IMG/VR virus record: IMGVR_UViG_3300006147_000011
From: a virus
Direction: 5' to 3' (one strand)
DNA length: 64,000 bases
The position numbers and the translations under genes are program-made. The notes under the pieces are model-generated. The model was not told the DNA's origin. It made no database searches and saw only the letters and a program-made list of their open reading frames with translations. Below are positions 1-35,583 of the stretch, in pieces (positions within the stretch are counted from its first letter, which is position 1; every line of letters starts with the position of its first letter).

Positions 1-74
1 GGCGTAGCACAGTTTGGTAGTGCGTATGATTTGGGATCATAAGGTCGCAGGTTCAAATCCTGTCGCTCCGACCA
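1..74 (+). tRNA. tRNA-Pro (anticodon TGG), 5' end cut by the window edge, CCA encoded
   Basis: T-arm GCAGG-TTCAAAT-CCTGT, 3' acceptor CGCTCCG + A + CCA, anticodon stem TATGA/TCATA with loop TTTGGGA (anticodon TGG), D-arm GCAC/GTGC. Confidence 0.75.
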
Positions 75-123
75 ATCAATAACGACGAATGAGCTAATTA
101 TTCGTCGCAAAACTTTTCCGCGC

Positions 124-363
124 ATGGAGGCGTATATGATAACACCAAACGATTTGAATAACTATTTAACCAAAGAACAAATTGACCGCATTTATGATGT
201 TTTTGTTTTCGAGGACGATGAAGAAATCGAAGCCGCTTGGTATGAAAATGGTCAATTATATGTGGACTACAATTCACCTGACGGTGGCAACGTTTATCAA
301 CCCTCTATGGATACACCGGAAGATCAAGCAAAACTTAAATACATTCTAACAGGACAAAAATAA
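124..363 (+). CDS. small highly acidic hypothetical protein (79 aa)
   Basis: ORF with RBS-like GGAGG upstream; about 20 D/E versus 5 K/R; no recognisable domain. Confidence 0.4.
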   Translation: MEAYMITPNDLNNYLTKEQIDRIYDVFVFEDDEEIEAAWYENGQLYVDYNSPDGGNVYQPSMDTPEDQAKLKYILTGQK

Positions 364-517
364 TGGAAAACTATTTAATAACTTTCTACGAGCTGGACAA
401 GAATAGCTTTTCGACGGAAAATATCAAGGCTTCTTCATTCGAGGATGCGCTTGAATATGCTCGACGCATACAAACAAAAGAGCAAGTATTACAAGAAATA
501 AAAATTCAGGAGGAACA

Positions 518-1288
518 ATGAAAGTTTTAGTTGTTGTCGATATGCAGAACGATTTTATCGACGGTTCGCTGGCTAATCCTATGGCACAGGCAATCGTTAA
601 TAAAGTTGCTAACTATGTATCGAACTTTGAAGGTCTGATTGTTTTTACAAGAGACACACACGAGGAAGATTATCTCGACACTCGCGAGGGCAAGAACCTA
701 CCAGTCCCCCACTGCATCGCCTTAACTGAGGGATGGAACATCAATACAGAAATCTACGCGGCGGCAGAGCGCAACCCTAAGGCAACAATCCTTAAAGTGA
801 ACAAAACCACATTCTCAGCGGGTACACCGCTGTACGTTGCAATTAAAACAAAGTGCGAGTTCCCAGAAGAAATTCAACTATGCGGAACCTGTACCGATAT
901 TTGCGTCGTATCTAACGCTCTTAACCTTGTAACCTTGTTCAGCAAAGCAAACATACTTGTTCTTGCCGACTTATGCGCAGGGCTAACAAAAGAGAAGCAC
1001 GAAGCCGCGTTGGAAGTTATGCACAGTTGCCAGATTGCAGTTATTAACTCAAACGATGAGTTAAGGGCATTTGTGCATAGCTGGGCACAAGAACACGGTT
1101 ATCTTAACGGCGAAGGAACATTATCCGATTGTGCTTTGTATGACGTCGGTTATGACCTAAAGCCAGACATCGAAGCAAGCAAGTTCAACGAAGCAACAAA
1201 GGACGCATTCGACGAGTGGTATGACATTTTCTTGGAAGATGAACTCGTACCAATTTTATTAGAACTCGGCGCTGTATCCGAAGACTAA
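518..1288 (+). CDS. pncA: isochorismatase-family cysteine hydrolase, nicotinamidase (PncA)-like
   Basis: VVVDMQNDF motif (Asp), conserved Lys in KVNKTTFSA, Cys in GTCTDICV (D-K-C triad); RBS AGGAGG before ATG. Confidence 0.6.
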   Translation: MKVLVVVDMQNDFIDGSLANPMAQAIVNKVANYVSNFEGLIVFTRDTHEEDYLDTREGKNLPVPHCIALTEGWNINTEIYAAAERNPKATILKVNKTTFSAGTPLYVAIKTKCEFPEEIQLCGTCTDICVVSNALNLVTLFSKANILVLADLCAGLTKEKHEAALEVMHSCQIAVINSNDELRAFVHSWAQEHGYLNGEGTLSDCALYDVGYDLKPDIEASKFNEATKDAFDEWYDIFLEDELVPILLELGAVSED

Positions 1289-1309
1289 GACATATAACGG
1301 AGAAACACA

Positions 1310-2119
1310 ATGATTAAAATCGAAGACACGATTATTAAACAAGAAACATTTGGCGACGGAACGCTTAAATGCCCTATTCCACCAATTGCAGCGGCGCGTG
1401 GTTTTATCTATATTACGTGGTGCTACGACAATGACGCAGAGCTGTTTTGCCTGTGGAGTCTTGTAGGACACATTCGCCAGCAACACCCTACACTTCTCAT
1501 AAATCTTTGTATGCCGTATATTCCTCATGCACGGCAAGACAGAAACGTCAGCAATAGACTGTTTACCCTCAAATATTTTGCAGAACTCATAAATCTTATG
1601 AAGTTTAACAAAGTGTTTGTACTCGACCCCCACTCCGATGTTTCAATGGCACTCATTGATCGTGTGGAAGAAAGTGACTTACCGTTCAGGGTTTCGCCCA
1701 AAGATGAGCAAGCAACCATTATGTTTCCTGACAACGGAGCTGCAAAGAAGTACGCTCCTCGTTATCATCTTGAGCCGACAGACAACCCTTTCATTATCGG
1801 AAATAAACACCGCAACACGGATGGTCGTATTGAAAGCTATGAGTTGATGAACTTCGTAGAAGGGACAAAGAGCGTTATCATTCGTGACGACATTTGTAGC
1901 TACGGTGGAACATTCGTTGCGGCGGCGAAAGAATTAAGAAAACGCGGTGTCGAACATATTACCCTCGTTGTATCACATTGCGAGAATAACATTCTTAAGG
2001 GTGAGGTGTTCGATCATATAGATGCAGTGTTCACTACCGACAGTATTTGTACCGTATCACATCCAAAACTCAAAGTCACAAGGTGTTACAGGGAGGGCTT
2101 ACTAAATGTACAGAATTAA
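1310..2119 (+). CDS. ribose-phosphate pyrophosphokinase (Prs) homolog; candidate ADP-ribose pyrophosphokinase (Adps-like) of a NARP1-type pathway
   Basis: PYIPHARQDR (Prs PYxxYARQDRK), VFVLDPHSD (DLHA region), IIRDDICSYGGTF (PRPP-binding DDxIDTGGT-like). Confidence 0.7.
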   Translation: MIKIEDTIIKQETFGDGTLKCPIPPIAAARGFIYITWCYDNDAELFCLWSLVGHIRQQHPTLLINLCMPYIPHARQDRNVSNRLFTLKYFAELINLMKFNKVFVLDPHSDVSMALIDRVEESDLPFRVSPKDEQATIMFPDNGAAKKYAPRYHLEPTDNPFIIGNKHRNTDGRIESYELMNFVEGTKSVIIRDDICSYGGTFVAAAKELRKRGVEHITLVVSHCENNILKGEVFDHIDAVFTTDSICTVSHPKLKVTRCYREGLLNVQN

Positions 2120-3599
2120 CCCGCTTTTAGAAAGCGATTTTTATAAACAAGTTCATTGGAACCAATATCCAAAAGGCATCACGAAGGTCGTAAGCTATTT
2201 TGTGCCAAGAATGAGCAGATTAAAGAACGATAAACACCTTATAATGTTTGGGTTACAGTCTTTCATCAAAGAATATCTTATCGAAGACTTTAACGAGTTC
2301 TTCTTTTCCCGTCCTAAGGAAGACGTTGTACGCGAATACAAACATCTCCTCAACAACACACTCGGTGAAGGGTTGTACGGCATTGAGCGCATCGCAGAAC
2401 TACACGACTTGGGCTATCTGCCCATTGAGATTAAGGCACTCGCAGAAGGCACTCTCGTTCCAATCGGCGTTCCTATGTTCGAGATAAGCAACACTCACCC
2501 CGATTTTGCTTGGCTTACAAACGCGCTCGAATCTGTCATCAGTTGCGAAATGTGGCACGCCATGATTTCGGCAAATGTCGGGTACAAATATAGGAAAATT
2601 GTAGATCACTTCTATGATTTAAGTTGCGACGACAATATCCCTCGTAGAAAAGCTCTTGGAGATTTCTCAATGAGAGGACAAGAGTCAAAACGTAGTGCAT
2701 ATAAATCTTCCGCCGGTTGGCTGTTATCATTCGTGAACACTGCCACCGTTCCTGCGGTAGATTATATGGAAAGATATTATAACTGCGACTGTTCAAAAGA
2801 GGAAGTCGGCTTTGGTTCTGTGTCAACTGAGCACTCTGTAATGTGCAGCAATTTCGCGGTTGACGGTGACGAAATCACAATGATTAAGCGTCTGCTCACA
2901 GAAATCTATCCTAATACGTCTTTCAGTATGGTGAGCGACAGCTACGATTACTGGAACTTGGTAGACAACATCTTGCCAATGTGTAAGAAAGAAATCCTCG
3001 AGCATAACGGATGTCTCTTGGTGCGCGGCGACTCTGGCGACCCCGTTGAGGTCGTCACAAAGACCGTGTTCCACCTTTGGGAGCAGTTCGGTGGAACAGT
3101 CAACTCAAAGGGCTACAAGGTTCTAAACCCCCATATCAAGGCAATATACGGCGATAGCATTACGCCTCAAAGAGCAGAAGCAATTTACACGATATTGGTT
3201 GACAACGGATTTGCAGCAAGCAATGTTGCTCTCGGTGTTGGTAGCTTCTCTATGCAATGCCTTGAGTCTTACGAGGAACACGCTGCTATCCCGACGTTCA
3301 ACCCCTACACAAGAGATACGTTCGGAATTGCCATCAAGGCGACTTATGCTGAAGATAAAGACGGAAAGCCTATAATGATTTTCAAAAATCCCAAAGAGGC
3401 TTCGTTCAAAAAGTCTCACAAAGGCTGTGTGCTCGTTTTAACGGGGGCTGACGGCGCGTTAACAAGCGAAGACGAACACGACTTCAAAGAGACTTATCGT
3501 GCCGACAATGCCCTAAAGACGGTCTTTAACGACGGCAAGATGACGCTCGAATATAGTCTTGCCGATGTCCGCAGAAGGCTTTATGGAGATAAATTTTAA
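2106..3599 (+). CDS. nicotinamide phosphoribosyltransferase family protein (Nampt/NadV-like; candidate Namat)
   Basis: N-terminal SDFYKQVHWNQYPKGITKVVSYFVPR matches Nampt [25 protein letters not shown]; 497 aa, typical size. Confidence 0.8.
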   Translation: MYRINPLLESDFYKQVHWNQYPKGITKVVSYFVPRMSRLKNDKHLIMFGLQSFIKEYLIEDFNEFFFSRPKEDVVREYKHLLNNTLGEGLYGIERIAELHDLGYLPIEIKALAEGTLVPIGVPMFEISNTHPDFAWLTNALESVISCEMWHAMISANVGYKYRKIVDHFYDLSCDDNIPRRKALGDFSMRGQESKRSAYKSSAGWLLSFVNTATVPAVDYMERYYNCDCSKEEVGFGSVSTEHSVMCSNFAVDGDEITMIKRLLTEIYPNTSFSMVSDSYDYWNLVDNILPMCKKEILEHNGCLLVRGDSGDPVEVVTKTVFHLWEQFGGTVNSKGYKVLNPHIKAIYGDSITPQRAEAIYTILVDNGFAASNVALGVGSFSMQCLESYEEHAAIPTFNPYTRDTFGIAIKATYAEDKDGKPIMIFKNPKEASFKKSHKGCVLVLTGADGALTSEDEHDFKETYRADNALKTVFNDGKMTLEYSLADVRRRLYGDKF

Positions 3600-4075
3600 T
3601 GATCACATATAAAAACGGAGATTTGCTTAAAAGCAACTGCAATATCATCTGCCACCAAGTAAACTGTCAAGGAGTTATGGGTTCAGGCATCGCAAAACAG
3701 ATACGCGCCACTTACCCCCATATCTTTTCAAAATATAAACAGCTATGCGAGCAGAATAAACTGGAATACCTAATGGGAGTTGCTCAAATATGCGCAATTT
3801 CAGAGGCTAAGACCCACTACATTGCTAATATGTTCGCACAGCTTCATTACTTGCCGCGTGGCATTAACCATACGAACTATGAGATGTTTAGGCTATGCTG
3901 CCAACAACTTAAAACCCTTATTCCGATAGAGATTGCCGATACAGAATTTACTATTGGCTTCCCTTATGGCATCGGTTGCGGACTGGGTGGCGGCGACTGG
4001 AACATAGTGAGAAAAATCATCGAAGAAGAATTTGCCGACGATAAATGGAAGGTTGAAATATGGAAGCTAAACTAA
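3599..4075 (+). CDS. macro domain protein (ADP-ribose binding or processing)
   Basis: GDLLKSNCNIICHQVNCQGVMGSGIAKQI resembles the macro-domain GDIT..DAIVNAAN..GGGGVDGAIH core; 158 aa. Confidence 0.6.
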   Translation: MITYKNGDLLKSNCNIICHQVNCQGVMGSGIAKQIRATYPHIFSKYKQLCEQNKLEYLMGVAQICAISEAKTHYIANMFAQLHYLPRGINHTNYEMFRLCCQQLKTLIPIEIADTEFTIGFPYGIGCGLGGGDWNIVRKIIEEEFADDKWKVEIWKLN

Positions 4076-4815
4076 AAGAAATATTAGACTGGCTTGAACA
4101 GTACAAAGAAATTACAAGATGTCGCGGAGTTGTTCTTGGAATAAGTGGCGGCAAAGATAGCACCGTTGTAGCAATGCTTGCGAAGAAAGTTTGGGGGGAC
4201 AATGTGCTTGGCGTTCTTATGCCAAATCACAACCAATCCGACCTTGACGACTCTCTCAAAATTGTTGAAACCCTTGGGATAAACTTCAAGGTAGTTAATA
4301 TCGGAAAAGTTTATGACTCATTGCTCGAGGTTGTCGAAGACGAAGGTTCTGGCTCGGATTATTGTAACGGTAAGGTATTTAATATCTCAAGAAAATCACT
4401 TACCAATATCCCTCCTCGTATTCGTATGACAGTGCTGTACGCCATTGCCCAAACCCTTGGATACAGGGTTATTGGAACAGGCAATGCAAGCGAGGCTTAT
4501 ATCGGTTGGACAACCAAATGGGGCGACAGCGCATACGACTTCAACCCCATTGCCCATCTAACCTGTACCGAGGTTATTGCTCTCGGCGAACTGCTTGCTG
4601 AGGAGTTCGGATTAGATAAAAAGTATGTCGTTAAGACACCGTCCGATGGATTATGCGGCAAGAGTGACGAAGATAGTTTCGGCTTTACATACTCAACGCT
4701 TGACGGGTATATCACGGGTGGAACTTCAAACACGGATTACGAAACCGCTCTAAAAATAGAGCAAATGCACCAAGCGTCAGAGCACAAGAGAAATATGCCC
4801 GCTACGTTAGAGTAA
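4060..4815 (+). CDS. nadE: NH3-dependent NAD+ synthetase (NadE)
   Basis: PP-loop VVLGISGGKDSTVVA followed by the LGVLMP motif typical of NadE. Confidence 0.7.
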   Translation: MEAKLKEILDWLEQYKEITRCRGVVLGISGGKDSTVVAMLAKKVWGDNVLGVLMPNHNQSDLDDSLKIVETLGINFKVVNIGKVYDSLLEVVEDEGSGSDYCNGKVFNISRKSLTNIPPRIRMTVLYAIAQTLGYRVIGTGNASEAYIGWTTKWGDSAYDFNPIAHLTCTEVIALGELLAEEFGLDKKYVVKTPSDGLCGKSDEDSFGFTYSTLDGYITGGTSNTDYETALKIEQMHQASEHKRNMPATLE

Positions 4816-4825
4816 CAACTTCTCA

Positions 4826-4870
4826 GTCCAAAGAGACTGACTTAACTAAATATAAATCTTCTCTTTGGAC
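4826..4870 (+). terminator. 11-bp inverted repeat GTCCAAAGAGA / TCTCTTTGGAC with about 23-nt AT-rich spacer after nadE
   Basis: Read directly; large loop, so terminator function is uncertain. Confidence 0.25.
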
Positions 4871-4894
4871 AATGAGCCAAATAAGGAGATTTAT

Positions 4895-5503
4895 ATGCCA
4901 GTAAAGATATCAACTACCAACAGCAAACTTGGGTTGATACCGTCGGTGAACTTGCCGCCGATAACAACCTGCCGACCACATTGCCCATGCGCAAAAGATT
5001 GCTATGCCACAAAGGGACGCTTTCGTTTTCAAAACGTAAAGGACAATCTAACAAACAATTACAAGCTTTACTTTCACGATCCTGCGTCATACTTTGAAGA
5101 AATTAAACACGCAATCAACAACGGAATGGTTTCATATTCTTACTTTCGTTGGCACGCTTCGGGCGATTTCGTAGATAAAGAATATTTTGAGGGCGTCGTT
5201 AAAGTCGCCAATGAACTTCCCCTCACATCCTTCCTTGCGTTTACTAAAAAGTTTGAACTTGTAAACGAATACATACAAAATGGCGGCACTATTCCCGATA
5301 ACCTGCACATCGTATTTAGCGCTTGGGGTGACGATTTCAAAGTTGAAAATCCATACTCCTTCCCTGTTGCGTATGTTCGGTTTAAGGAAAGCGAAAACAA
5401 ATCTATACCGGAAAGCGCGGCTGAATGCTCTGGCGATTGCACGAATTGCTTGCAGTGTTGGAACATTAAGAGCGGCGAGTCCGTTGTATTTAATAAGCAC
5501 TAA
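4895..5503 (+). CDS. Cys-rich hypothetical protein (about 202 aa from ATG 4895)
   Basis: AAGGAG RBS 6 nt before ATG 4895; conserved cysteines (CRPHCPCAKDC ... CSGDCTNCLQC). Confidence 0.4.
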   Translation: MPVKISTTNSKLGLIPSVNLPPITTCRPHCPCAKDCYATKGRFRFQNVKDNLTNNYKLYFHDPASYFEEIKHAINNGMVSYSYFRWHASGDFVDKEYFEGVVKVANELPLTSFLAFTKKFELVNEYIQNGGTIPDNLHIVFSAWGDDFKVENPYSFPVAYVRFKESENKSIPESAAECSGDCTNCLQCWNIKSGESVVFNKH

Positions 5504-5527
5504 TTTTTTAAGGAGATTTACACAATA

Positions 5528-6637
5528 ATGGCAATAGCATTAACACTTGGTTTTTTATTTGCTGCTCTTTGTGTGGCTGGCTGGGTAGTATTCGGCATAA
5601 GCGCATACAAAGTGTATGATGGCGAGGACGCTATCGGCTGGAAAGTTAGCAAATGGGGATGCCTATGTCTTGGCATTGCATTTGCATTGCTTACATTCTT
5701 TATTCCTGGAAGTTTTCACACAGTAGATACTGGTGAAATTGCCGTAGTAAAGCATCTCGGACAGATAAAAGACGTACACACAGCAGGGACGTACTACGAT
5801 TTCTGGATCACGGAAAAATACGAAAAGTACGATACCAAGGTACAAACGCTCGACATACAAGATTCCGCCTATTCAAAAGATGCCCAAACAATGGACTTGA
5901 CAATGACAGTTCAATATCAAATCGATACAGATAAAGTCAAAGAAATTGCAACAACCTACGGCTCTCTTGATGCTTTATCAAGTAGAATTCGCAGCGTATC
6001 GATTGAACGTGCCAAATCTGTTCTATCAAACTATTCGGCGATGACAATTATTGAAACCAGAGCTTCAATATCACCAGAAGTTGAAGACGCAATTAAGCTT
6101 GTTATATCGGAAAATTATTTCGTAACCATAAATACCGCCGTTCTGACAAACATCGACTTTTCGGATGCTTTTGAACAAACTGTCGAACAAAAAATGATTG
6201 CTGAACAACAACAATTGCAAGCACAATATGAGGCGGAGAAAGCCAAAATTGAAGCGGAAGCCGCAGCTCAAATAGCAAAGATTGAAGCGGAAGCTTCGCT
6301 CGCTGTTGCAAAGTTAAACGCCGAAGCAAAGATAGCCGCCGCCGAAGGTGATGCCGCTGCGCAAGTAACAATAGCGCAGTCAGAGGCGAGAGCAACAAAA
6401 CTTAAGTCTATCGAAGTTGCTCGTATGCTTGGGTTTACTATTCTTGAAAATGAAGTTACAGACAATGATGGAGAAACAATCATTGAATACACTATCGACT
6501 TCACGGGCAAAAGTGCTGAGGAAATTTCTGTCATTTCTGATTATCTCAAGTATATCGAATATCTATCAAAATGGAACGGAGAACTGCCAGATGTTATGAG
6601 CGGTGACTCTGCAACAATAATCATACCTAAACCTTAA
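5528..6637 (+). CDS. SPFH/band-7 (prohibitin/HflKC-like) membrane protein
   Basis: N-terminal TM helices, SPFH core (HTVDTGEIAVVKHLGQI), long Ala/Glu/Gln coiled-coil (AEQQQLQAQYEAEKAKIEAEAAA). Confidence 0.7.
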   Translation: MAIALTLGFLFAALCVAGWVVFGISAYKVYDGEDAIGWKVSKWGCLCLGIAFALLTFFIPGSFHTVDTGEIAVVKHLGQIKDVHTAGTYYDFWITEKYEKYDTKVQTLDIQDSAYSKDAQTMDLTMTVQYQIDTDKVKEIATTYGSLDALSSRIRSVSIERAKSVLSNYSAMTIIETRASISPEVEDAIKLVISENYFVTINTAVLTNIDFSDAFEQTVEQKMIAEQQQLQAQYEAEKAKIEAEAAAQIAKIEAEASLAVAKLNAEAKIAAAEGDAAAQVTIAQSEARATKLKSIEVARMLGFTILENEVTDNDGETIIEYTIDFTGKSAEEISVISDYLKYIEYLSKWNGELPDVMSGDSATIIIPKP

Positions 6638-6650
6638 ACGGAGAATAATT

Positions 6651-7016
6651 ATGAGCCTCGACAAAGCAATTCAACACGGTAAAGAAAAGAGAAAACCTTA
6701 CTATGGCGAGAAAGCATTTGATCCAGCGTGCCGCAATCACGGCGGTGACGATTGGAGTAAAAGCAATCGTACAATTCAGCGTCAGCGTGCCGAACAGCAA
6801 GCAAATTCAAAAATTCAAGAGGCTCAAACCGAACCCGTTTTAACCAACCGCGAATGGCTTGAAAGTCTCACCGATGAACAATTAGCGGAAATGTTAATTG
6901 GTTCATTCAAAATTTTCGTCGCGGTTGACAGAAGCATAGGAACGAAAGAAAATGACAGTCGTCAAGACAGCATTAAAAAACATATTCAATGGCTTCGTTC
7001 CAAACACAAAAAATAA
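6651..7016 (+). CDS. hypothetical protein (121 aa)
   Basis: ORF with RBS GGAGAA; no recognisable motif. Confidence 0.4.
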   Translation: MSLDKAIQHGKEKRKPYYGEKAFDPACRNHGGDDWSKSNRTIQRQRAEQQANSKIQEAQTEPVLTNREWLESLTDEQLAEMLIGSFKIFVAVDRSIGTKENDSRQDSIKKHIQWLRSKHKK

Positions 7017-7029
7017 TTTGGAGTGTATT

Positions 7030-8168
7030 ATGAGAAAACTTGCTCACATCGAACAAATTGCATGGCTCCGCCCCATCGAAGGAGCTGACAAAATCGAGCT
7101 CGCCGGCATACTCGGCTGGCAGTGTATCGTAAAAAAGAATGAATTTAAGGTTGGCGATCTTGCAATCTACGTTGAAATTGACAGCATTATGCCTTCCGAC
7201 AATCCTGACTTCGCGTTTCTTGAGTCTAAACATTATAAAATTAAGACAATGAAAATGCGCGGCGTCATATCTCAAGGCATCATCTTCCCCCTCTCTGTTC
7301 TCCATGACGAAAAAACACACGGCATCGGTGACGATGTTACCGACATCCTTAAGATTAAACAGGTCGAAGATGATGTTCCCAAGCAACAGGTCAAAGACCC
7401 CGCGGCGGCAATTAAGCAACGCCACAAAAAACTCTTCAAAAATAAAGTATTTTTATGGTTTATGAAGTTCAAGTGGTTTAGAAAAACCGTTTATAAACTT
7501 CTCGCACCGAAAAAGAAACCGAAAAACTTCCCCGACTGGATCGTTAAAACGGACGAAACACGTTTGCAAAATATGCCTTTCGTTCTCGATACATACAAGG
7601 ACAAGCCAATGGTCGTCACTGAAAAGCTGGACGGCACCTCTACGAGCTTTGGGTTGAGAAAAGAAAAGAAAAGAAAAGAAAATATGACTTCGCGGTGTGT
7701 TCACGGAACGTGCGCCAAGCCGACATCAACCAAAAGTGTTTCTACGACGACAATGTGTACCACCAAATCGCCAATAAGTACGACATCCGCAACGTGCTTA
7801 TGCAGATACTTGAAAAATATAAAGCAACTACTGTCGTTCTTCAGGGCGAAACCATTGGCGAGGCAATTCAAAAAAATAAATACGGTCTCAAGGGAATTGA
7901 TTTCTATGCCTTCAACCTTGTAATCGACGGGGTAAAAATGGACAGCGCAGTCGCAACAGATGTGATGCACGACTTTGGAATCAAGTGGGTTCCGATTATT
8001 AACGCGAACTTTAAGCTGCTCCCCACTGTCGATGAAATGATTGCTTATGCTGACGGAAAGTCCACATTGTGCGATACGCTTAGAGAAGGCGTTGTTATAC
8101 GAGACCACGACAACAAAATTAGCTTTAAGTGTATCAGCAATCAATTCTTACTTAAACACAATATATAA
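7030..8168 (+). CDS. Rnl2-family ATP-dependent RNA ligase, split by a frameshift inside a (GAAAA)5 repeat
   Basis: Adenylation motif KLDGTS (frame 1), then CSRN, LQGETIGEAIQKN (Rnl2 GIQKN motif) and REGVVIR in frame 3 (7695..8168); ATG 7030 with RBS GGAGTG. Confidence 0.6.
7658..7682 (+). repeat. pentanucleotide simple-sequence repeat (GAAAA)x5 at the ligase frameshift
   Basis: gaaaagaaaagaaaagaaaagaaaa read directly; gain or loss of one 5-nt unit shifts the frame by -1 or +1. Confidence 0.9.
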
Positions 8169-8181
8169 GGAGTCGTGAGAT

Positions 8182-8406
8182 GTGAACAGAGAGAGAAGAA
8201 AACGAATTAACAAAGTCATAGCTACAATCAATGGGTGTGCCGATGAGCTTGACGATATAAAGTTTGACGAAGACTACGCAAGAGAGAACACACCCGAAAA
8301 TTTGCAAGGGGGCGACGCTTATTGTACATCGGAAGACTGTAGTGATAAAATAGAAGATGCAATCTCTGACATTCGACAGGCGGCAAGTACCTTGGAAGAA
8401 ATTTAG
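8182..8406 (+). CDS. putative antitoxin partner of MazF-like toxin (basic N-terminus, acidic C-terminus)
   Basis: 74-aa ORF ending 15 nt before the MazF start; RERRKRINKV basic N-terminus, very acidic C-terminus. Confidence 0.3.
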   Translation: MNRERRKRINKVIATINGCADELDDIKFDEDYARENTPENLQGGDAYCTSEDCSDKIEDAISDIRQAASTLEEI

Positions 8407-8420
8407 AGGCGGTATCAATT

Positions 8421-8762
8421 ATGCACCGAGGCGAAATATATTTAGTCGATTTAAGTAATCAGGTAGGCTCGGAACAAACCGGTATTCGCCCCGCTTTGAT
8501 AGTACAGAATGAACAAGGGAACCAACATTCCCCTACTACTATCATTTGCCCTCTCACATCTCAAGATAAAACACCGATAGAAACTCACGTTACGCTGACG
8601 CCAAGCGATGCAGGAATACTTAAAGTTTCTACGGTGTTATGTGAGCAGGTCAGAGTTGTAGACAAAACGAGACTTAAGAAAAAGTTGGGCGAAGTTGTTA
8701 ATAGAAGTAAAATTGACGACATTAACAGAAAACTTATGATTTCTATCGGTATAGGAGTTTAA
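8421..8762 (+). CDS. mazF: MazF/PemK-family mRNA interferase toxin
   Basis: RGEIYLVDL ... GSEQTGIRPALIV ... ICPLTS, the classic MazF/PemK N-terminal signature. Confidence 0.7.
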   Translation: MHRGEIYLVDLSNQVGSEQTGIRPALIVQNEQGNQHSPTTIICPLTSQDKTPIETHVTLTPSDAGILKVSTVLCEQVRVVDKTRLKKKLGEVVNRSKIDDINRKLMISIGIGV

Positions 8763-13455: not shown

Positions 13456-13896
13456 ATGAGACAGTTAATAATTGCAAGAAAGGATTTGAATATGTCAGCG
13501 GGTAAGTTGGCAGCGCAATGCTGCCACGCCTCTATGGCATTTATCACAAGCCCAATGCGCAACGGAAATTGCCAATGGGTTGGAACAGGCGGAATCACGT
13601 ACAAAGCGGACATAGATACCGACGTGTACAAGGAATGGATTTGCGGTATTTTCACGAAAACAATTTGCGAGGCAAAGAACCGCAACCAACTTATGAAAGC
13701 TGTTACTATGGCAAACGAACTTGGTCTGATTGAGGGCAAAGATTTCTTTCTCATTAAAGACAGTTGTCTTACCGAGCTTGAACCAGAAGAAATTGATGAG
13801 AATGGCATCGGCAGAACACTCACTTGTATAGGTTTTCGTCCACTCCCTGATGATATTGCTCATCTCATCAGCAAAAAGTACCAGCTTTACAAATGA
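13456..13896 (+). CDS. PTH2-family peptidyl-tRNA hydrolase
   Basis: RQLIIARKDLNMSAGKLAAQCCHASM matches the PTH2 core (vvRtDLkMgkGKiaAQcsHAa). Confidence 0.6.
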   Translation: MRQLIIARKDLNMSAGKLAAQCCHASMAFITSPMRNGNCQWVGTGGITYKADIDTDVYKEWICGIFTKTICEAKNRNQLMKAVTMANELGLIEGKDFFLIKDSCLTELEPEEIDENGIGRTLTCIGFRPLPDDIAHLISKKYQLYK

Positions 13897-15627: not shown

Positions 15628-15876
15628 ATGGACAAAAAGTTAACCTGTCCCTTTTGCGGCAGAGAAGTAAGAATTGTAGTCTGTGATGACGAAGGCAATA
15701 TCCATCCAGACGAATACGAAGACGATCCGTGGAGCGGCTTAGGCTATATGTTAGTTCACGAGGAAGCCGACGGTGTTCACTGTCCTATCGCAACAGAACC
15801 AGATGAACCATTAGGTCGTTTAATTTATGACTCACGCGAAGAAGCTATCAAAGTTTGGAGTACACGAAATGGCTAA
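15628..15876 (+). CDS. Lar-family restriction-alleviation-like zinc-ribbon protein
   Basis: N-terminal CPFCG, second Cys pair (VHCP), C-terminal EEAIKVWSTRNG matching the Lar eeAi.aWNrR ending. Confidence 0.5.
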   Translation: MDKKLTCPFCGREVRIVVCDDEGNIHPDEYEDDPWSGLGYMLVHEEADGVHCPIATEPDEPLGRLIYDSREEAIKVWSTRNG

Positions 15877-16828
15877 TACGTTGGTAGTTAATCTATTTGG
15901 CGTTCCTGGCGCAGGCAAAAGCACGGGAGCCGCATACATATTCTCCTGCATTAAAATGGCAGGCATCAATGCAGAACTTATAACCGAATATGCAAAAGAT
16001 AAAGTTTGGGAACGAAACGATGAAGCGTTCCGCAACCAAGCCTACATATTTGGAGAGCAATCTTATAGGATAAGCCGCTGCGCCGGTAAGGTTGATGTTA
16101 TCGTTACCGACAGCCCGCTTCCTTTAAGTGTAATGTACAACAACGACGAACGACTTACAGAAAACTTTAACAAAGCCGTAATGGATGTGTTCAACACATA
16201 CGACAACCTTAACTACCTCTTGCTGAGAGTTAAGCCGTACAATCCCGTTGGGCGTAAGCAGACTGAAGCTGAGTCAGACGCACTTGGTGCATCGGTTATC
16301 TCGCTCCTCAAAGACAGAAACATCCCCTACCGCTCCATTGAAGGCGATGTGAAAGGATATGACGAGATTGTTCGAGAAATTCTTTTAAGGATAAACGGAG
16401 AACAAATTATGAATGACATCACAGAGTTCAGAGGAAACAATTACTACCTAAGCAACTTCTACGAAAGAGACGTTACCTGTTTCGGTCTTACATTTAAGAA
16501 TAATGAAGCGGCGTTCCACGCAATGAAGTGTCCCGAAAGAGCAAGCGAGTTTTGCGACCTCGACCCGTCGGCGGCAAAGAAACTTGGGCGACACGTCCAA
16601 CTTCGTTCCGACTGGGAGCAAGTCAAAGAAGACATCATGCTCGAGGTTTGCCGCGCTAAGTTTATGCAACATCCTGACCTAAAAGAAAAACTACTCTCCA
16701 CTGGTTCCGTACAACTCATCGAGGGTAACGATTGGAACGACAGAGAATGGGGTGTATGCAACGGTGAGGGCAAAAACAAGCTCGGAAAAATTCTTATGCG
16801 AATCAGAGAGGAACTTTCAAATGCGTAG
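15869..16828 (+). CDS. fusion of N-terminal P-loop kinase domain and C-terminal NADAR (YbiA-like) domain
   Basis: Walker A GVPGAGKST; C-terminal YYLSNFY ... NNEAAFHAMK ... EGNDWNDREWG, the NADAR/DUF1768 signature; ATG 15869 overlaps the Lar stop. Confidence 0.6.
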   Translation: MANTLVVNLFGVPGAGKSTGAAYIFSCIKMAGINAELITEYAKDKVWERNDEAFRNQAYIFGEQSYRISRCAGKVDVIVTDSPLPLSVMYNNDERLTENFNKAVMDVFNTYDNLNYLLLRVKPYNPVGRKQTEAESDALGASVISLLKDRNIPYRSIEGDVKGYDEIVREILLRINGEQIMNDITEFRGNNYYLSNFYERDVTCFGLTFKNNEAAFHAMKCPERASEFCDLDPSAAKKLGRHVQLRSDWEQVKEDIMLEVCRAKFMQHPDLKEKLLSTGSVQLIEGNDWNDREWGVCNGEGKNKLGKILMRIREELSNA

Positions 16829-33235: not shown

Positions 33236-34354
33236 TTACGACCAATAGAATAATCGCACATAAAGGTCGTGTATTCTTTGCCTTGCCCAATATGAGTTAA
33301 ATTTGAGCTGATGACCACGCCACGAACACCACGATGTCGTAACATCTTCAAATGTCATCTTACCCTCTTCAACCCAACGCTTGAACTTTTTAAGTTTTCT
33401 GCGCATAAGCGTAATATTTTTCTTGTGCGGCTTGCGTATTATCTTTCCCGTTTTCGTTAAAATGAAATGTGTTTTGAGAAAATTGATACCACGACTTAAT
33501 TTAATTATCTGGGTTTTCTTTGGATTTAGCTTTATACCAAGTTCGGTACAAATCTCCGTAATCTTTTGCAGACAGTATTTTAAGTGTTCTTTGTCGTGGT
33601 GTATTAAGCATCCATCGTCCATATAACGACAGTAATACTTAATACCTAAATCTTCCTTTATATAGTGATCCATTTTATTTGGGAGAGCTAACGCGCAACT
33701 CTGCGATATTTGACTACCTAACCCAAGTCCGTTCTCGCCGAAGTCGTCAACAAGTTGTTTGACGATAGCATACAACCTATCGTCCGTGATTTTCTCGCGC
33801 AAAATTTTCAACAGCGCAACGTGGTTAATGCTGTTAAAGTATTTCGAGAAATCAAAAACGAGGGCGTAACCCTCGCTGCCGTGTTGTCTATAATACTTTT
33901 CCAAATGTCTGTTCATTCGGTTAAGTGCAAAGTCTATTCCGCGAAGTTTAATGCAAGCTCCGTTATCATAGATAAAAGAACGCTTCAAAATCGGAACAAG
34001 ACTGTAATCGCATAGGCACCGTTGAACAACTCGCTCACTAATATGAACGCTTTGTATATGTCTTGCCTTGCCTCGTTCGATTATATTAAACTCATAAAAT
34101 CCTTTGCTTTTGAATGTTCCGTCACGCAACATTTTATATGTAGAATTTACGTTGAGCAGAGCATTCGTTCTGTATTTGTGGGTGCTGGATTTCCAGCCCA
34201 CCCCTTTGCAACATTGTTTGTAACTGTGATACAAGTTATCAAACGTGAAAACTTTATCGTAATCACAATAAATTTCATCAAATTTCCTTTTCTTCTCGAG
34301 ACGTCTTTGTTTGCGTCTCTGATACCTTAATTCATGTCTTTCCTTGCTATTCAT
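33236..34354 (-). CDS. diversity-generating retroelement (DGR) reverse transcriptase
   Basis: RT motifs including YCRYMDDGCLI (YxDD), 372 aa; located immediately 3' of the TR/VR pair. Confidence 0.8.
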   Translation of the reverse strand: MNSKERHELRYQRRKQRRLEKKRKFDEIYCDYDKVFTFDNLYHSYKQCCKGVGWKSSTHKYRTNALLNVNSTYKMLRDGTFKSKGFYEFNIIERGKARHIQSVHISERVVQRCLCDYSLVPILKRSFIYDNGACIKLRGIDFALNRMNRHLEKYYRQHGSEGYALVFDFSKYFNSINHVALLKILREKITDDRLYAIVKQLVDDFGENGLGLGSQISQSCALALPNKMDHYIKEDLGIKYYCRYMDDGCLIHHDKEHLKYCLQKITEICTELGIKLNPKKTQIIKLSRGINFLKTHFILTKTGKIIRKPHKKNITLMRRKLKKFKRWVEEGKMTFEDVTTSWCSWRGHQLKFNSYWARQRIHDLYVRLFYWS

Positions 34355-34570
34355 AAAAATTATATACCTTGTACAGTGAAATCATTGTGGGAAAATAACT
34401 GCATAGTGATACCTACCATTAAACGCGCTACCACAATCACGCGCAATGCAAGAAGCGTCCGGTAGACCACATCAAAATATTCATTTATCCTTGCGGAAAG
34501 GTCATAAACCCCTTTTGTACTTGCGCTGATTTCGTTCCTCTATGGGAATTACTGTGTCTGGCATTATCGT

Positions 34571-34695
34571 ACAAAATCCGAAAGCGACGCCGTTACTGTT
34601 GTTGGCATTGTTGTTATTGCTGTTACCGTTGCTGTTGACATAGCAGAAGTTGTTGCTATTATTGTAATACGGAGAGCGAAGCCACCAGTTGCACG
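34571..34695 (-). repeat. DGR template repeat (TR), about 125 bp
   Basis: 108/125 identical to VR 35590-35714; all 17 mismatches fall on + strand T (TR-strand A); Asn-codon-rich when translated. Confidence 0.85.
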
Positions 34696-34742
34696 CCACG
34701 ACAAATGTAAATCGGTTCATAACCTATATATAAAAAATCGCC

Positions 34743-35162
34743 TTAAGACTCGTTTGGAGTTTCTTTAAGACGTTCTTTATCTTTTTTCTTTACTGCGGAA
34801 ATCAGTTTGGCTTCTTTTTCGATTAAGTCCATCCAAGCACACCAAGTGTTCGACTTAACTTCTTCTCCAAACATTTCTTTCGCAACATCAAGTTGGGAAA
34901 TTAAGCATTGCAAATCGCAATTTGCCCTCGTGAGATAATCTCTACGCATCTGTATTTCCAGCTCACCGGAAGGGAAAACGCTGTTTGCTGCTTTGACATT
35001 GTTGTACACCGATTGCGATAGTCTCACAATTTCGGTAGTAATAAAAAAGGTATATCGTTTAGGAAATTTGACACAATTTCGTAAGGTGAAAATCTCTAAC
35101 TGTCTTGCAGTGTCTATGAATTGTAATTGTGATTCATTTCTGTTACTTTTAAGTACCGCCAT
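34743..35162 (-). CDS. avd: DGR accessory variability determinant (Avd)-like small helical protein
   Basis: 139-aa helical, basic ORF placed between target and TR as in canonical DGR cassettes. Confidence 0.55.
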   Translation of the reverse strand: MAVLKSNRNESQLQFIDTARQLEIFTLRNCVKFPKRYTFFITTEIVRLSQSVYNNVKAANSVFPSGELEIQMRRDYLTRANCDLQCLISQLDVAKEMFGEEVKSNTWCAWMDLIEKEAKLISAVKKKDKERLKETPNES

Positions 35163-35194
35163 CTTTATCTCCTTATTGTGTCAGTATTATTTTT

Positions 35195-35515
35195 TTATTC
35201 TTCTGTTTCTTCCCGATCTTCATTTTCGGGTTGAACATACTTAATTGCCTCAAAATATTCGTTATCTTTGATGTCTATATCTCCTATCAGAACAGACGGA
35301 CTCGCGCCGAGACCAAGATATCTATCGACGTTATCTTGAGGGTTCTTCATATACCATCCGACATTATCGCCCGAAAATTTATATATCAAGTGATAGTTGC
35401 CGCATATATGTAGTTCGTTGTTAGCAATATACCCTTGTCCGTTCGCCGCGACGAAGATTAACTTCTCTGCTTCGTTGTGCGGTTCGAGCGTAGGTTTGAA
35501 ATAGAATTGCTCCAT
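35195..35515 (-). CDS. hypothetical protein (106 aa) inside the DGR cassette
   Basis: ORF with acidic C-terminus; RBS GGAGG upstream. Confidence 0.4.
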   Translation of the reverse strand: MEQFYFKPTLEPHNEAEKLIFVAANGQGYIANNELHICGNYHLIYKFSGDNVGWYMKNPQDNVDRYLGLGASPSVLIGDIDIKDNEYFEAIKYVQPENEDREETEE

Positions 35516-35531
35516 ACTTGTCCTCCTTGTT

Positions 35532-35552
35532 AATTTTTAATTCCGCCACATT
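35532..35552. other. perfect 8-bp stem / 5-nt loop hairpin (TCCGCCAC-ATTGC-GTGGCGGA) 38 nt past the VR end
   Basis: Read directly; no T-run on the coding (-) strand, so not a canonical terminator; position matches DGR VR-flanking hairpins. Confidence 0.5.
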
Positions 35553-35583
35553 GCGTGGCGGATTTCTTTGTTTTGATATGAGA

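What the first reader, a model, noticed from the sequence alone, without database searches (positions are those of the whole stretch)
124..4815. Expanded NAD+ reconstitution / ADP-ribose cluster: PncA-like + Prs-like (Adps) + Nampt-like (Namat) + macro + NadE in one operon
The adjacent Prs-like and Nampt-like genes look like the core of the NARP1 NAD+ reconstitution pathway, which phages use against NAD+-depleting immunity (ADPR -> ADPR-PP -> NAD+). Here the pair sits in an operon with a nicotinamidase-family hydrolase, a minimal macro domain and an NH3-dependent NAD synthetase. That combination is not the minimal two-gene system. It suggests a deamidated variant route: PncA-like makes nicotinate from nicotinamide, the Nampt-like enzyme condenses it with ADPR-PP to deamido-NAD, and NadE amidates that to NAD+. 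The macro domain could first convert cyclic or phosphorylated ADPR products of the host defence into ADPR. There is no NMNAT, PncB or NadD homolog in the window, so the encoded parts only make sense as an ADPR-based salvage.
Basis: partly seen in the sequence, partly recalled or inferred. Interest (0 to 1): 0.8.

Follow-up and report, generated by a model that had tools for sequence, protein, structure and literature searches.

The report
Deamidated phage NAD+ rebuilding operon
A gut-phage operon looks like the known phage pathway that rebuilds NAD+ after bacterial immunity destroys it, but its key enzyme has lost the nicotinamide-reading residues and always travels with a nicotinamidase and an NAD synthetase. 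That points to an undescribed route through nicotinate and deamido-NAD.

Summary
The five genes are real and tightly packed on one strand: nicotinamidase 518-1288, Adps-like 1310-2119, Namat-like 2106-3599, macro 3599-4075, NadE 4060-4815. The two small ORFs at 124-521 are not conserved and are not part of the system.

The Prs-like protein matches a validated phage Adps (137 bits) better than any solved PRPP synthetase (44 bits). The Nampt-like protein matches SPbetaL1 Namat (391 bits) better than human NAMPT (174 bits).

The decisive result is in the base pocket. The Asp-His-Gly network that reads the nicotinamide amide, plus Ala242, is replaced: H-G-D-A becomes G-N-A-S.

Across 327 loci this switch co-varies completely with the two extra genes:
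- 242 Ala/Ser-type loci: nicotinamidase and NadE both present in 208, one in 31, neither in 3 short contigs.
- 85 Asp/Glu-type loci: none has either gene.

No NadD, PncB or NMNAT is encoded in the window. The best reading is a deamidated NARP1: ADPR to ADPR-PP, plus nicotinate to NaAD, then NadE to NAD+. The macro domain probably supplies ADPR from ADPR-1''-phosphate, as in the published NARP1-AP.

I found no description of this variant in the searched literature. The chemistry is inferred, not shown.

The parts
518..1288 (+). Nicotinamidase (PncA-like), 256 aa. Inferred step: nicotinamide to nicotinate plus NH3.
   Evidence: Pfam Isochorismatase 75.5 bits. The best solved relatives are nicotinamidases/pyrazinamidases: P. 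horikoshii 1ilw 59 bits and M. tuberculosis PncA 3pl1. The catalytic triad D8/K96/C129 and the metal ligands D46/H48/H65 are present, and they are invariant in 223-225 homologues from related loci. Residues 180-256 form a C-terminal extension found in no homologue.
1310..2119 (+). Adps-like PRPS-fold kinase, 269 aa. Inferred step: ADPR plus ATP to ADPR-PP plus AMP.
   Evidence: phrog_619 E=1.7e-60. It scores 137 bits at 34% identity over the full length against SPbetaL1 Adps, 70 bits against ICP1 Adps, and 44 bits against the best solved PRPP synthetase. All NCBIfam PRPS models score below their cut-offs. The functional ICP1 Adps residues R87, H121, D161, K185 and D212/D213 align to R75, H108, D141, K166 and D193/D194 (PMC13586617).
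2106..3599 (+). Namat-like ADP-ribose transferase with a switched base pocket, 497 aa. Inferred step: ADPR-PP plus nicotinate to NaAD plus PPi.
   Evidence: 391 bits against SPbetaL1 Namat (PDB 9w5x), 174 bits against human NAMPT. The catalytic and ribose-phosphate residues are all conserved.
2658..2825 (+). Codons of the four-residue pocket signature: G185 (2658-2660), N211 (2736-2738), A213 (2742-2744), S240 (2823-2825).
   Evidence: These residues align with SPbetaL1 Namat H187, G213, D215 and A242. The first three align with human NAMPT H191, G217 and D219. The signature is HGDA or HGEA in 84 of 85 Asp/Glu-type loci. It is GNAS, AKSS or SKSS in 237 of 242 Ala/Ser-type loci.
3240..3317 (+). 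Selectivity-clamp helix region (G379 to D404), with a 15-residue insertion relative to the Namat motif GSXΦXΦXΦTRD.
   Evidence: The window reads GSFSMQCLESYEEHAAIPTFNPYTRD where SPbetaL1 reads GSFTYQYNTRD. F381 (SPbetaL1 F392), R38 (R40) and T402-R403-D404 are conserved. The equivalent of Y396 is uncertain.
3599..4075 (+). Stand-alone macro domain (Adpp-like), 158 aa. Inferred step: ADPR-1''-phosphate to ADPR.
   Evidence: Pfam Macro 30.9 bits, phrog_335 'phosphatase' E=1.6e-39. The DarG macro model scores 74 bits, below its cut-off of 250. It is homologous to macro genes that sit next to NARP1 genes in Asp-type phages: Pseudomonas phage HJ01 at E=1e-12 and Vibrio phage Bennett at E=6e-7. A macro gene is present in 129 of 242 Ala/Ser-type loci. 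It is fused to NadE in locus L062.
4060..4815 (+). NH3-dependent NAD+ synthetase (NadE), 251 aa. Inferred step: NaAD plus ATP plus NH3 to NAD+.
   Evidence: TIGR00552 184 bits (cut-off 63.65), Pfam NAD_synthase 180 bits. The best solved relative is P. horikoshii NadE 2e18 at 132 bits. The SGGxDS P-loop (S29-S34) is conserved in at least 221 of 223 homologues from related loci, apart from its variable x position.

Best explanation
This is a deamidated variant of the phage NAD+ reconstitution pathway NARP1. It adds an ADPR-1''-phosphate phosphatase, as in the published NARP1-AP.

Proposed mechanism after a host NADase splits NAD+ into ADP-ribose and nicotinamide:
1. The macro domain removes the 1''-phosphate if the host enzyme produced ADPR-1''-P.
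2. The Adps-like kinase pyrophosphorylates ADPR to ADPR-PP.
3. The phage nicotinamidase converts nicotinamide to nicotinate plus NH3.
4. The Namat-like transferase has lost its amide-reading Asp/His/Gly network and gained Asn (or Lys) and Ser. It joins nicotinate to ADPR-PP and gives deamido-NAD (NaAD) directly. NaMN and NadD are bypassed.
5. The phage NadE uses ATP and NH3 to amidate NaAD to NAD+.

Shown here: gene identities, catalytic-residue conservation, operon architecture, and the complete co-variation of the pocket switch with PncA and NadE.

Inferred: every substrate and product, and the anti-defence role.
For: 1. Family placement.
- The Nampt-like protein scores 391 bits against SPbetaL1 Namat and 174 bits against human NAMPT.
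- The Prs-like protein scores 137 bits against SPbetaL1 Adps and 44 bits against the best solved PRPS. The functional Adps residues are conserved (PMC13586617).

2. Pocket switch.
- Namat Asp215 hydrogen-bonds nicotinamide, and D215A cuts NAD+ output 8-fold (PMC12774641).
- Its human equivalent, Asp219, defines NAMPT substrate specificity (PMC7096376). With His191, Gly217 and a water it forms one hydrogen-bond network (PMC4186856).
- The window has G185, N211 and A213 at these three positions, plus S240 in place of Ala242, another nicotinamide-pocket residue.
- The stacking and ribose-phosphate residues are invariant in both types: Y15, F189, R192, H245, R306, D308, G360, D361 and T398-R399-D400.

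3. Co-variation.
- 242 Ala/Ser-type loci: PncA and NadE both within 8 kb in 208, one in 31, neither in 3.
- With at least 5 kb on both flanks: 168 of 174 have both and the other 6 have one.
- 85 Asp/Glu-type loci: 0 have either gene. Fisher p is about 6e-51, not corrected for phylogeny.
- In GenBank phages, 2021 records hold a Namat/Nampt homologue. Only 49 hold a NadE homologue and 9 a PncA homologue.

4. The association survives deep divergence.
- Phass-1, a recoded gut phage, has a Namat only 35% identical, yet carries the same PncA-Prs-Nampt-x-NadE operon with Ala at the switch position.
- Gene order is shuffled in part of the clade.
- The clade contributes about 50 of the best 150 cluster representatives at 50% identity.

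5. No NadD, PncB or NMNAT.
- None in the window. An NMNAT-like gene is nearby in only 11 of 242 Ala/Ser-type loci.
- Bacillus phage G encodes a PRPP-based deamidated route, and it does carry PncB and NadD and has no Prs gene in the 12.7-kb stretch examined.

6. ADPR logic.
- A macro domain is present in 53% of Ala/Ser-type loci against 18% of Asp/Glu-type loci. There is one macro-NadE fusion.
- The Namat-specific clamp residue F392 is kept in 160 of 162 Ala/Ser-type sequences.

7. PncA and NadE look active and orthodox. The archaeal-type single-domain NadE that was assayed, from M. jannaschii, is NaAD-specific (PMC3376133).
Against: - No biochemistry exists for any member of the Ala/Ser clade.
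- The Ala/Ser clade is nearly monophyletic in a neighbour-joining tree. The co-variation could therefore descend from one historical event, and the Fisher p-value overstates independence.
- The adenine-clamp helix carries a 15-residue insertion in the window's subclade, so the Y396 equivalent cannot be placed. R40 is Met in the [AS]KSS subclade. The ribosyl donor may therefore differ from ADPR-PP.
- The route costs one more ATP than NARP1, and hosts normally have their own PncA and NadE, so the selective advantage is unexplained.
- 49 of 242 Ala/Ser-type loci also carry a Nudix gene, which could compete for ADPR. 11 carry an NMNAT-like gene.
- Namat keeps PRPP activity in vitro (PMC12774641), so some NaMN formation is possible.
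- NadE is not exclusive to this system. Xanthomonas phage X1 has NadE near an Asp-type Nampt and a NadM-Nudix gene.
Confidence: 0.6

Rival explanations
1. A PRPP-based Preiss-Handler booster. The Prs-like enzyme makes PRPP. The switched Nampt-like enzyme acts as a nicotinate phosphoribosyltransferase and makes NaMN. Host NadD makes NaAD and phage NadE finishes. ADPR is not a substrate.
For: - The pocket switch predicts nicotinate use but says nothing about the ribosyl donor.
- Namat retains PRPP activity in vitro (PMC12774641).
- The clamp helix carries an insertion, and R40 is Met in one subclade.
- 11 of 242 Ala/Ser-type loci carry an NMNAT-like gene.
Against: - The Prs-like protein is much closer to validated Adps than to any solved PRPS, and it fails every NCBIfam PRPS cut-off.
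- 95% of Ala/Ser-type loci, and the window itself, lack any NadD or NMNAT.
- A phage that does encode Preiss-Handler salvage (Bacillus phage G) uses PncB plus NadD, and no Prs gene lies in the 12.7-kb stretch examined.
- The Namat-specific F392 is retained.
- Macro domains, which handle ADPR derivatives, are enriched three-fold in this clade.
Confidence: 0.13
2. Ordinary NARP1 (nicotinamide plus ADPR-PP to NAD+) with two independent passenger genes. PncA and NadE merely boost the host's own salvage flux, or remove excess nicotinamide. The pocket substitutions are neutral drift or tune affinity.
For: - SPbetaL1 D215A still makes some NAD+, with an 8-fold reduction (PMC12774641).
- The Ala/Ser clade is nearly monophyletic, so linkage by descent is possible.
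Against: - Four pocket positions are replaced in concert and then held fixed. Ser replaces Ala242 in 162 of 162 sequences, and Asp215 is never retained.
- A co-expressed nicotinamidase would destroy the substrate of a nicotinamide-dependent Namat.
- PncA and NadE stay in the same strand block through gene-order shuffling and across unrelated phage backbones.
- None of 85 Asp/Glu-type operons ever acquired either gene.
Confidence: 0.1
3. The chemistry is as proposed, but the purpose is general metabolic support, not counter-defence. The operon would raise NAD+ supply for phage replication in anaerobic gut Clostridia, for example by recycling ADPR from routine NAD+ turnover.
For: - No defence system was examined here.
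- The window carries many nucleotide-metabolism genes: NrdD/NrdG, dUTPase, NT5C.
- The operon also occurs in bacterial genome assemblies, including isolates.
Against: - The parent pathway NARP1, and its macro extension, were shown experimentally to counter NAD+-depleting defences (bioRxiv 10.1101/2024.02.11.579819 and 10.64898/2026.01.28.702374).
- ADPR and nicotinamide accumulate together mainly when NAD+ is cleaved.
- The same window carries other ADP-ribose-linked genes typical of conflict systems, such as the NADAR protein at 15827-16828.
Confidence: 0.12

Closest known systems
NARP1 (Adps + Namat; Osterman et al., bioRxiv 10.1101/2024.02.11.579819; structures in PMC12774641 and PMC13586617)
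   Same: An adjacent, co-oriented PRPS-fold Adps homologue and Nampt-fold Namat homologue. The functional Adps residues, the Namat catalytic core and clamp residues F392, R40 and D400 are conserved. The element is phage-borne.
   Different: The nicotinamide-reading residues (H187, G213, D215, A242 in SPbetaL1 numbering) are replaced by G, N, A and S. The clamp helix has a 15-residue insertion. Nicotinamidase and NAD synthetase genes accompany the pair almost without exception, and none of 85 Asp/Glu-type operons has either. The predicted product of the transferase is NaAD, not NAD+.
NARP1-AP (Adps + macro phosphatase Adpp + Namat; bioRxiv 10.64898/2026.01.28.702374)
   Same: A small stand-alone macro domain sits inside the operon and is homologous to macro genes in Asp-type NARP1 operons. 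The likely role is the same: ADPR-1''-P to ADPR.
   Different: Here the macro gene follows Namat rather than lying between Adps and Namat. It is far more frequent: 53% of Ala/Ser-type loci against 18% of my Asp/Glu-type sample (15% in that paper). It is embedded in the deamidated variant.
Preiss-Handler salvage (PncA-PncB-NadD-NadE), encoded in full by Bacillus phage G
   Same: It starts with nicotinamide deamidation by PncA and ends with NadE amidation of NaAD.
   Different: There is no PncB and no NadD. The two middle steps (nicotinate to NaMN to NaAD) are replaced by one predicted step that uses ADPR-PP, made by Adps from the other NAD+ cleavage product.
NARP2 (Nampt + NMNAT, e.g. Xanthomonas phage X1) and NARP3 (PnuC + NadR, PMC13464706)
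   Same: Phage-encoded NAD+ restoration.
   Different: No NMNAT, NadR or PnuC was found in the window. The X1 Nampt keeps the HGDA pocket and lacks the Namat clamp signature (GMGGGLLQKVNRD).
Human NAMPT Asp219 as the base-specificity determinant (Khan et al. 2006, as cited in PMC7096376)
   Same: The same position is altered: Asp to Ala or Ser. From my own recollection, not checked here, the D219S mutant gains nicotinate activity.
   Different: A laboratory point mutant compared with a natural, deep clade in which the whole Asp-His-Gly network and Ala242 are rebuilt.

Membership tests
NARP1 | Adjacent, co-oriented Adps (PRPS-fold) and Namat (Nampt-fold) genes | tested here: met
   1310-2119 and 2106-3599 overlap by 14 nt on the + strand. 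The same pairing occurs in 232 of 242 Ala/Ser-type loci.
NARP1 | The Prs-like protein belongs with Adps rather than with PRPP synthetases | tested here: met
   137 bits against SPbetaL1 Adps, 70 bits against ICP1 Adps, 44 bits against the best solved PRPS. All NCBIfam PRPS models score below their cut-offs. The equivalents of R87, H121, D161, K185 and D212/D213 are conserved. Several of these residues are shared with PRPS, so this rests mainly on overall similarity.
NARP1 | [quoted passage not shown] | tested here: inconclusive
   GSF and TRD are present, but 21 residues lie between GS and TRD where the motif has 6. F381 (SPbetaL1 F392) and R38 (R40) are conserved, and the Y396 equivalent is ambiguous. 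Phass-1, in the same Ala-type clade, has the canonical GAYTYQYVTRD.
NARP1 | Nicotinamide recognition by Asp215 (NAMPT Asp219) | tested here: not met
   Ala213 in the window, and Ala or Ser in 242 related loci. The partner residues His and Gly are also replaced.
NARP1 | Enzymatic conversion of ADPR to ADPR-PP to NAD+, and rescue from NAD+-depleting defence | not testable with these tools
   This requires in vitro reconstitution with LC-MS, and plaque assays.
NARP1-AP | A macro-domain gene within two genes of the NARP1 pair (Pfam PF01661, PF14519 or PF20016, as that paper defined it) | tested here: met
   3599-4075 hits PF01661 at 30.9 bits (cut-off 22), directly downstream of Namat. It is homologous to macro genes next to NARP1 genes in Pseudomonas phage HJ01 and Vibrio phage Bennett.
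NARP1-AP | ADPR-1''-phosphate phosphatase activity | not testable with these tools
   Only homology is available. The DarG model scores 74 bits against a cut-off of 250, so it is not a DarG equivalog.
Nicotinamidase (PncA) | Asp-Lys-Cys catalytic triad plus Asp-His-His metal site | tested here: met
   D8, K96 and C129, and D46, H48 and H65, align with P. horikoshii PncA. They are invariant across 223-225 homologues. The NCBIfam PncA equivalog model scores below its cut-off (21 against 174), so the protein is divergent.
NH3-dependent NAD+ synthetase (NadE) | Curated family model and SGGxDS ATP-pyrophosphatase loop, single domain without a glutaminase | tested here: met
   TIGR00552 184 bits against a cut-off of 63.65. 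The SGGKDS loop lies at residues 29-34. The protein is 251 aa with no nitrilase domain. NaAD versus NaMN preference was not tested.
Preiss-Handler pathway | PncB (NAPRTase) and NadD (NaMN adenylyltransferase) | tested here: not met
   jackhmmer with phage G PncB and NadD found no hit in the window or in any of 330 loci. No Pfam hit among 50 window ORFs.
NARP2 | NMN adenylyltransferase partner of Nampt | tested here: not met
   No NMNAT-domain hit in the window. One is present near only 11 of 242 Ala/Ser-type loci.
NARP3 | PnuC transporter plus NadR-like bifunctional enzyme | tested here: not met
   No PnuC or NadR family hit among the window ORFs scanned. The only related item is an AAA_28 P-loop domain fused to NADAR at 15827-16828.

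The most novel reading that the evidence does not exclude
The transferase is a new enzyme activity, nicotinate:ADPR-PP ADP-ribosyltransferase, which makes deamido-NAD in one step and so opens a route to NaAD that bypasses NaMN and NadD. Beyond that, the detour may have its own immune-evasion logic. The nicotinamidase would convert freely diffusible nicotinamide into charged nicotinate that stays in the cell. The pyridine nucleotide would then be held as NaAD, possibly a poor substrate for defence NADases. An irreversible ATP-driven NadE step would release NAD+ from it.
Probability: 0.25. Interest if true: 0.9.

Novelty: new variant of a known kind. Interest (0 to 1): 0.78.

Why it matters
NAD+ depletion is among the most common modes of bacterial antiviral immunity, and NARP1 is the best-known metabolic countermeasure. 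Three consequences would follow if this variant is real.

- It would add a previously unknown enzymatic reaction (nicotinate plus ADPR-PP to NaAD) to NAD biochemistry.
- It would show that phages have rewired reconstitution through the deamidated branch. The variant is widespread: about a third of the nearest 150 Namat cluster representatives, several hundred IMG/VR contigs, and 309 matches in species-representative genomes, mostly gut Clostridia.
- It gives a four-residue sequence signature (HGDA versus GNAS or [AS]KSS) that predicts base specificity and can be tested by mutagenesis in both directions.

It also raises a question for experiment: why pay an extra ATP to go through nicotinate? 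The answer may reveal host counter-measures that act on nicotinamide, or properties of NaAD in infected cells.

Tried and rejected
- Megablast of 1-6700 against GenBank phages found nothing. Relatives had to be found at protein level.
- The promoter and terminator scan of 1-7200 showed no enrichment over shuffles. The operon claim rests on junctions and synteny instead.
- The small ORFs at 124-363 and 363-521 were considered as parts of the system and rejected. They have no family hits and are not conserved.
- The macro domain as a DarG-type antitoxin was considered. It scores 74 bits on the DarG model against a cut-off of 250 and sits inside the NAD operon. Anti-DarT activity is not excluded, but Adpp-like phosphatase is preferred.
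- NadE as an NMN synthetase (Francisella type) was considered. The window NadE is closer to archaeal-type NadE (132 bits) than to Francisella NadE (108 bits). The assayed M. jannaschii single-domain NadE is NaAD-specific (PMC3376133). I could not test the specificity residues.
- Bacillus phage G gp277 was checked as a possible independent Ala/Ser-type Nampt. It proved to be a PncB-family enzyme and is not informative about the pocket.
- Cyanophage NadE-like genes sit in glycosylation clusters and are unrelated to this system.
- Structure prediction was not run. Only window sequences and homologous-protein hits may be submitted, so no deep alignment could be used. No coordinates are returned, and the active site lies at a dimer interface.
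- The searched literature held no paper with NARP1 together with nicotinamidase, NadE, NAD synthetase/synthase, deamido or nicotinate. The Phass-1 paper lists the nicotinamidase only in a gene table.

Full report
**What is in the sequence**

Between 518 and 4815 the + strand carries five genes. Their junctions are +21, -14, -1 and -16 nt, and each is preceded by a Shine-Dalgarno-like motif. Profile searches assign them as follows:
- 518-1288: isochorismatase-fold hydrolase.
- 1310-2119: PRPP-synthetase-like protein. It hits phrog_619 at E=1.7e-60 and falls below every curated PRPS cut-off.
- 2106-3599: Nampt-family protein, NF006629 454 bits.
- 3599-4075: 158-aa macro domain.
- 4060-4815: single-domain NH3-dependent NAD synthetase, TIGR00552 184 bits.

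They are not conserved in relatives. A promoter and terminator scan was uninformative.

**Which families the core pair belongs to**

The Nampt-like protein's best solved relatives are the SPbetaL1 Namat structures 9w5x and 9w5w, at 391 bits. A second phage entry, 9ke8, scores 310 bits. Human and rodent NAMPT score about 174 bits.

I retrieved the experimentally validated operons of SPbetaL1 and ICP1. The window's Prs-like protein aligns end to end with SPbetaL1 Adps (137 bits, 34% identity) and with ICP1 Adps (70 bits). The best solved PRPP synthetase scores 44 bits. The residues shown to matter in ICP1 Adps are R87, H121, D161, K185 and D212/D213 (PMC13586617). They align with R75, H108, D141, K166 and D193/D194. 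The pair is therefore a NARP1-type pair.

**The unexpected feature**

In the Namat-nicotinamide crystal structure, Asp215 hydrogen-bonds the amide. The D215A mutant lowers NAD+ synthesis 8-fold (PMC12774641). The equivalent residue in human NAMPT, Asp219, is described as fundamental in defining substrate specificity (PMC7096376, citing Khan et al.). It forms a D219-H191-water-Y188 network for which Gly217 is required (PMC4186856).

In the window the conserved G-T-D-T becomes N-T-A-T, so Ala213 replaces the Asp. Across 247 loci four pocket positions switch together:

| SPbetaL1 residue | Asp/Glu-type loci | Ala/Ser-type loci |
|---|---|---|
| H187 | His in 84 of 84 | Gly, Ala or Ser in 161 of 162, Thr in 1 |
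| G213 | Gly in 85 of 85 | Asn or Lys in 160 of 162 |
| D215 | Asp or Glu | Ala or Ser |
| A242 | Ala in 85 of 85 | Ser in 162 of 162 |

Everything that stacks on the pyridine ring or binds ribose and phosphate is invariant in both groups. This covers Y15, F189, R192, H245, R306, D308, G360, D361 and T398-R399-D400. The Namat-specific clamp residue F392 is kept in 160 of 162 Ala/Ser-type sequences.

The clamp helix is altered in the window's subclade by a 15-residue insertion (GSFSMQCLESYEEHAAIPTFNPYTRD). The more distant Phass-1 member of the same clade keeps the canonical GAYTYQYVTRD.

**Co-variation with nicotinamidase and NadE**

I collected loci in several ways:
- a scan with the window protein and a scan with a clade alignment;
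- a scan with an alignment of divergent Ala/Ser-type representatives;
- a scan with an alignment of the nearest Asp-type representatives;
- a scan of species-representative genomes;
- annotated GenBank phages.

For each locus I read the pocket residue from an HMM alignment. I searched 8 kb on either side with iterated profile searches seeded with the window proteins.

| Namat type | Loci | PncA and NadE both | One of the two | Neither |
|---|---|---|---|---|
| Ala/Ser, all | 242 | 208 | 31 | 3 (short contigs) |
| Ala/Ser, at least 5 kb on both flanks | 174 | 168 | 6 | 0 |
| Asp/Glu, all | 85 | 0 | 0 | 85 |

Adps is present in 82 of the 85 Asp/Glu-type loci and macro in 15. The Asp-type scan used a peptide pattern that contains GTD, so that set is Asp-type by construction. 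The test is whether such loci lack the two genes, and they do.

Whole-genome searches of 50,697 GenBank phage records agree. A Namat/Nampt homologue occurs in 2021 records, NadE in 49 and PncA in 9.

In 207 loci with all four genes, all four are on one strand, with a median span of 4.4 kb. The orders are:
- PncA-Adps-Namat-Macro-NadE in 95 loci (the window's order);
- the same without macro in 86;
- Adps-Namat-Macro-NadE-PncA in 15.

An exhaustive search of 1.84 billion cluster representatives returned a best-150 list with 37 Ala, 19 Ser and 1 Val against 96 Asp and 1 Glu. In a neighbour-joining tree the Ala/Ser/Val sequences form one clade of 50 with a single Asp exception.

**The accessory enzymes look functional**

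The nicotinamidase has the Asp-Lys-Cys triad (D8, K96, C129) and the Asp-His-His metal site (D46, H48, H65) of solved nicotinamidases. All are invariant in 223-225 homologues.

NadE has the SGGxDS loop. It is nearest to archaeal-type single-domain NadE. The assayed member of that type, from M. jannaschii, amidates NaAD and not NaMN (PMC3376133).

The macro protein is homologous to macro genes adjacent to NARP1 genes in Pseudomonas phage HJ01 and Vibrio phage Bennett. This matches the published NARP1-AP, in which such a macro protein dephosphorylates ADPR-1''-P (bioRxiv 10.64898/2026.01.28.702374). One related locus fuses macro to NadE.

**What is missing, and why that matters**

The window has no NadD, PncB, NMNAT, NadR or PnuC. 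Of the Ala/Ser-type loci, only 11 of 242 have an NMNAT-like gene nearby.

Bacillus phage G does encode a deamidated salvage route. It carries PncA, a PncB-family NAPRTase, NadD and NadE, and no Prs gene lies in the stretch examined. So when phages use PRPP they bring NadD. Here Adps stands in that place.

This favours ADPR-PP as the ribosyl donor and NaAD as the direct product. The stoichiometry also closes: the NH3 released by the nicotinamidase is the NH3 that NadE consumes. That last point is inference from the known reactions of the two families.

**Most likely mechanism, confidence about 0.6**

1. Macro: ADPR-1''-P to ADPR, when needed.
2. Adps-like: ADPR plus ATP to ADPR-PP.
3. PncA: nicotinamide to nicotinate.
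4. Switched Namat: ADPR-PP plus nicotinate to NaAD.
5. NadE: NaAD to NAD+.

Gene identity, residue conservation and co-variation are shown. All substrates and the anti-defence role are inferred.

The main weaknesses are these:
- There is no biochemistry.
- The clade is nearly monophyletic, so the statistical independence is limited.
- The clamp is remodelled.
- The extra ATP cost has no explanation.
- Nudix genes occur in 20% of loci, and NMNAT-like genes occasionally.

Three rivals remain: a PRPP-based route that relies on host NadD; ordinary NARP1 with passenger genes; and general metabolic support without a defence context. Each is scored with its evidence in the rival-explanations section.

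**Context and host**

The window is a phage or prophage. It carries terminase, tail genes, DNA polymerase III alpha, primase-helicase, NrdD/NrdG and two tyrosine recombinases.

The nearest genome-collection relatives are contigs binned as uncultured Christensenella (96% Namat identity, about 81-84% nucleotide identity in synteny). Most other matches are in gut Clostridia MAGs and two isolates. The IMG/VR relatives come from many samples. Phass-1, the most distant carrier, is predicted to infect Clostridia (PMC10607447).

**Novelty**

Published systems are NARP1, NARP1-AP, NARP2, NARP3 and RyDEP-assisted NARP1. Full-text searches found no paper that connects NARP1 with nicotinamidase, NadE, deamido-NAD or nicotinate. 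The library does not hold every journal, so an unseen description cannot be excluded.

I rate this a new variant of a known kind. It has a predicted new enzyme activity and a sequence signature that can be tested directly.

Noticed in passing
window 33236-36621 (- strand); TR 34570-34695, VR 35589-35714: A diversity-generating retroelement. A reverse transcriptase gene lies at 33236-34354. A 126-nt template repeat matches a variable repeat at the 3' end of a DUF6273 tail-associated gene (35584-36621). All 17 mismatches fall on adenines of the template.
   Followed up: yes
window 15827-16828 (+): A 333-aa protein that fuses an AAA_28 P-loop domain to a NADAR domain (93 bits; PDB YbiA 66 bits). 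It is a second ADP-ribose-linked gene, 11 kb downstream of the NAD operon. It may be a counter-defence or ADPR-releasing enzyme. Phass-type phages also list a NADAR protein.
   Followed up: partly
window 8182-8762 (+): A MazF/PemK-family toxin gene (8421-8762, Pfam 109 bits) is preceded by a small ORF (8182-8406). This may be a phage-borne toxin-antitoxin pair.
   Followed up: no
window 6952-8168 (+): An RNA ligase appears split into two overlapping ORFs in different frames: the PHA02142 OB-fold at 6952-7923 and the RNA_ligase domain at 7695-8168. This suggests a frameshift, programmed or mutational. A PTH2 peptidyl-tRNA hydrolase lies at 13456-13896.
   Followed up: no
window 1058-1288 (C-terminal 76 aa of the nicotinamidase): The window's PncA carries a C-terminal extension of about 76 residues that none of 225 homologues shares. 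In the closest relatives (L251, L252) this stretch does not align at nucleotide level.
   Followed up: partly
L062 9491-10711 (IMG/VR 3300045988_179865): A single 406-aa ORF fuses the macro domain to NadE. This fusion links the two accessory functions.
   Followed up: partly
Related loci, e.g. L272 11434-12324, L046 10246-10836, L131 13511-14086: 49 of 242 Ala/Ser-type loci carry a Nudix-domain protein of about 300 aa near the operon, against 5 of 85 Asp/Glu-type loci. 11 carry an NMNAT-like gene of about 190 aa. L046 lacks PncA and has the NMNAT-like gene directly after NadE.
   Followed up: partly
L003/L008 2299-4405; many cluster representatives of 540-900 aa: The Adps-like gene of L003 appears interrupted, with a second matching piece 1.2 kb downstream. 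Many Namat representatives are much longer than 500 aa, and their matches split near residue 318. This suggests insertions (inteins or homing endonucleases) or fusions.
   Followed up: no
L331 (Bacillus phage G, 200617-213348): Phage G encodes a Preiss-Handler set in one block: isochorismatase/PncA-like gp275, PncB-family gp277, NadD gp281 and NadE gp283. A Nudix hydrolase and a KptA-like RNA 2'-phosphotransferase lie alongside.
   Followed up: partly
window 3-74 (+): A tRNA-Pro (TGG) gene lies immediately upstream of the operon block. It is conserved at the same position in the closest relatives L251 and L252.
   Followed up: no
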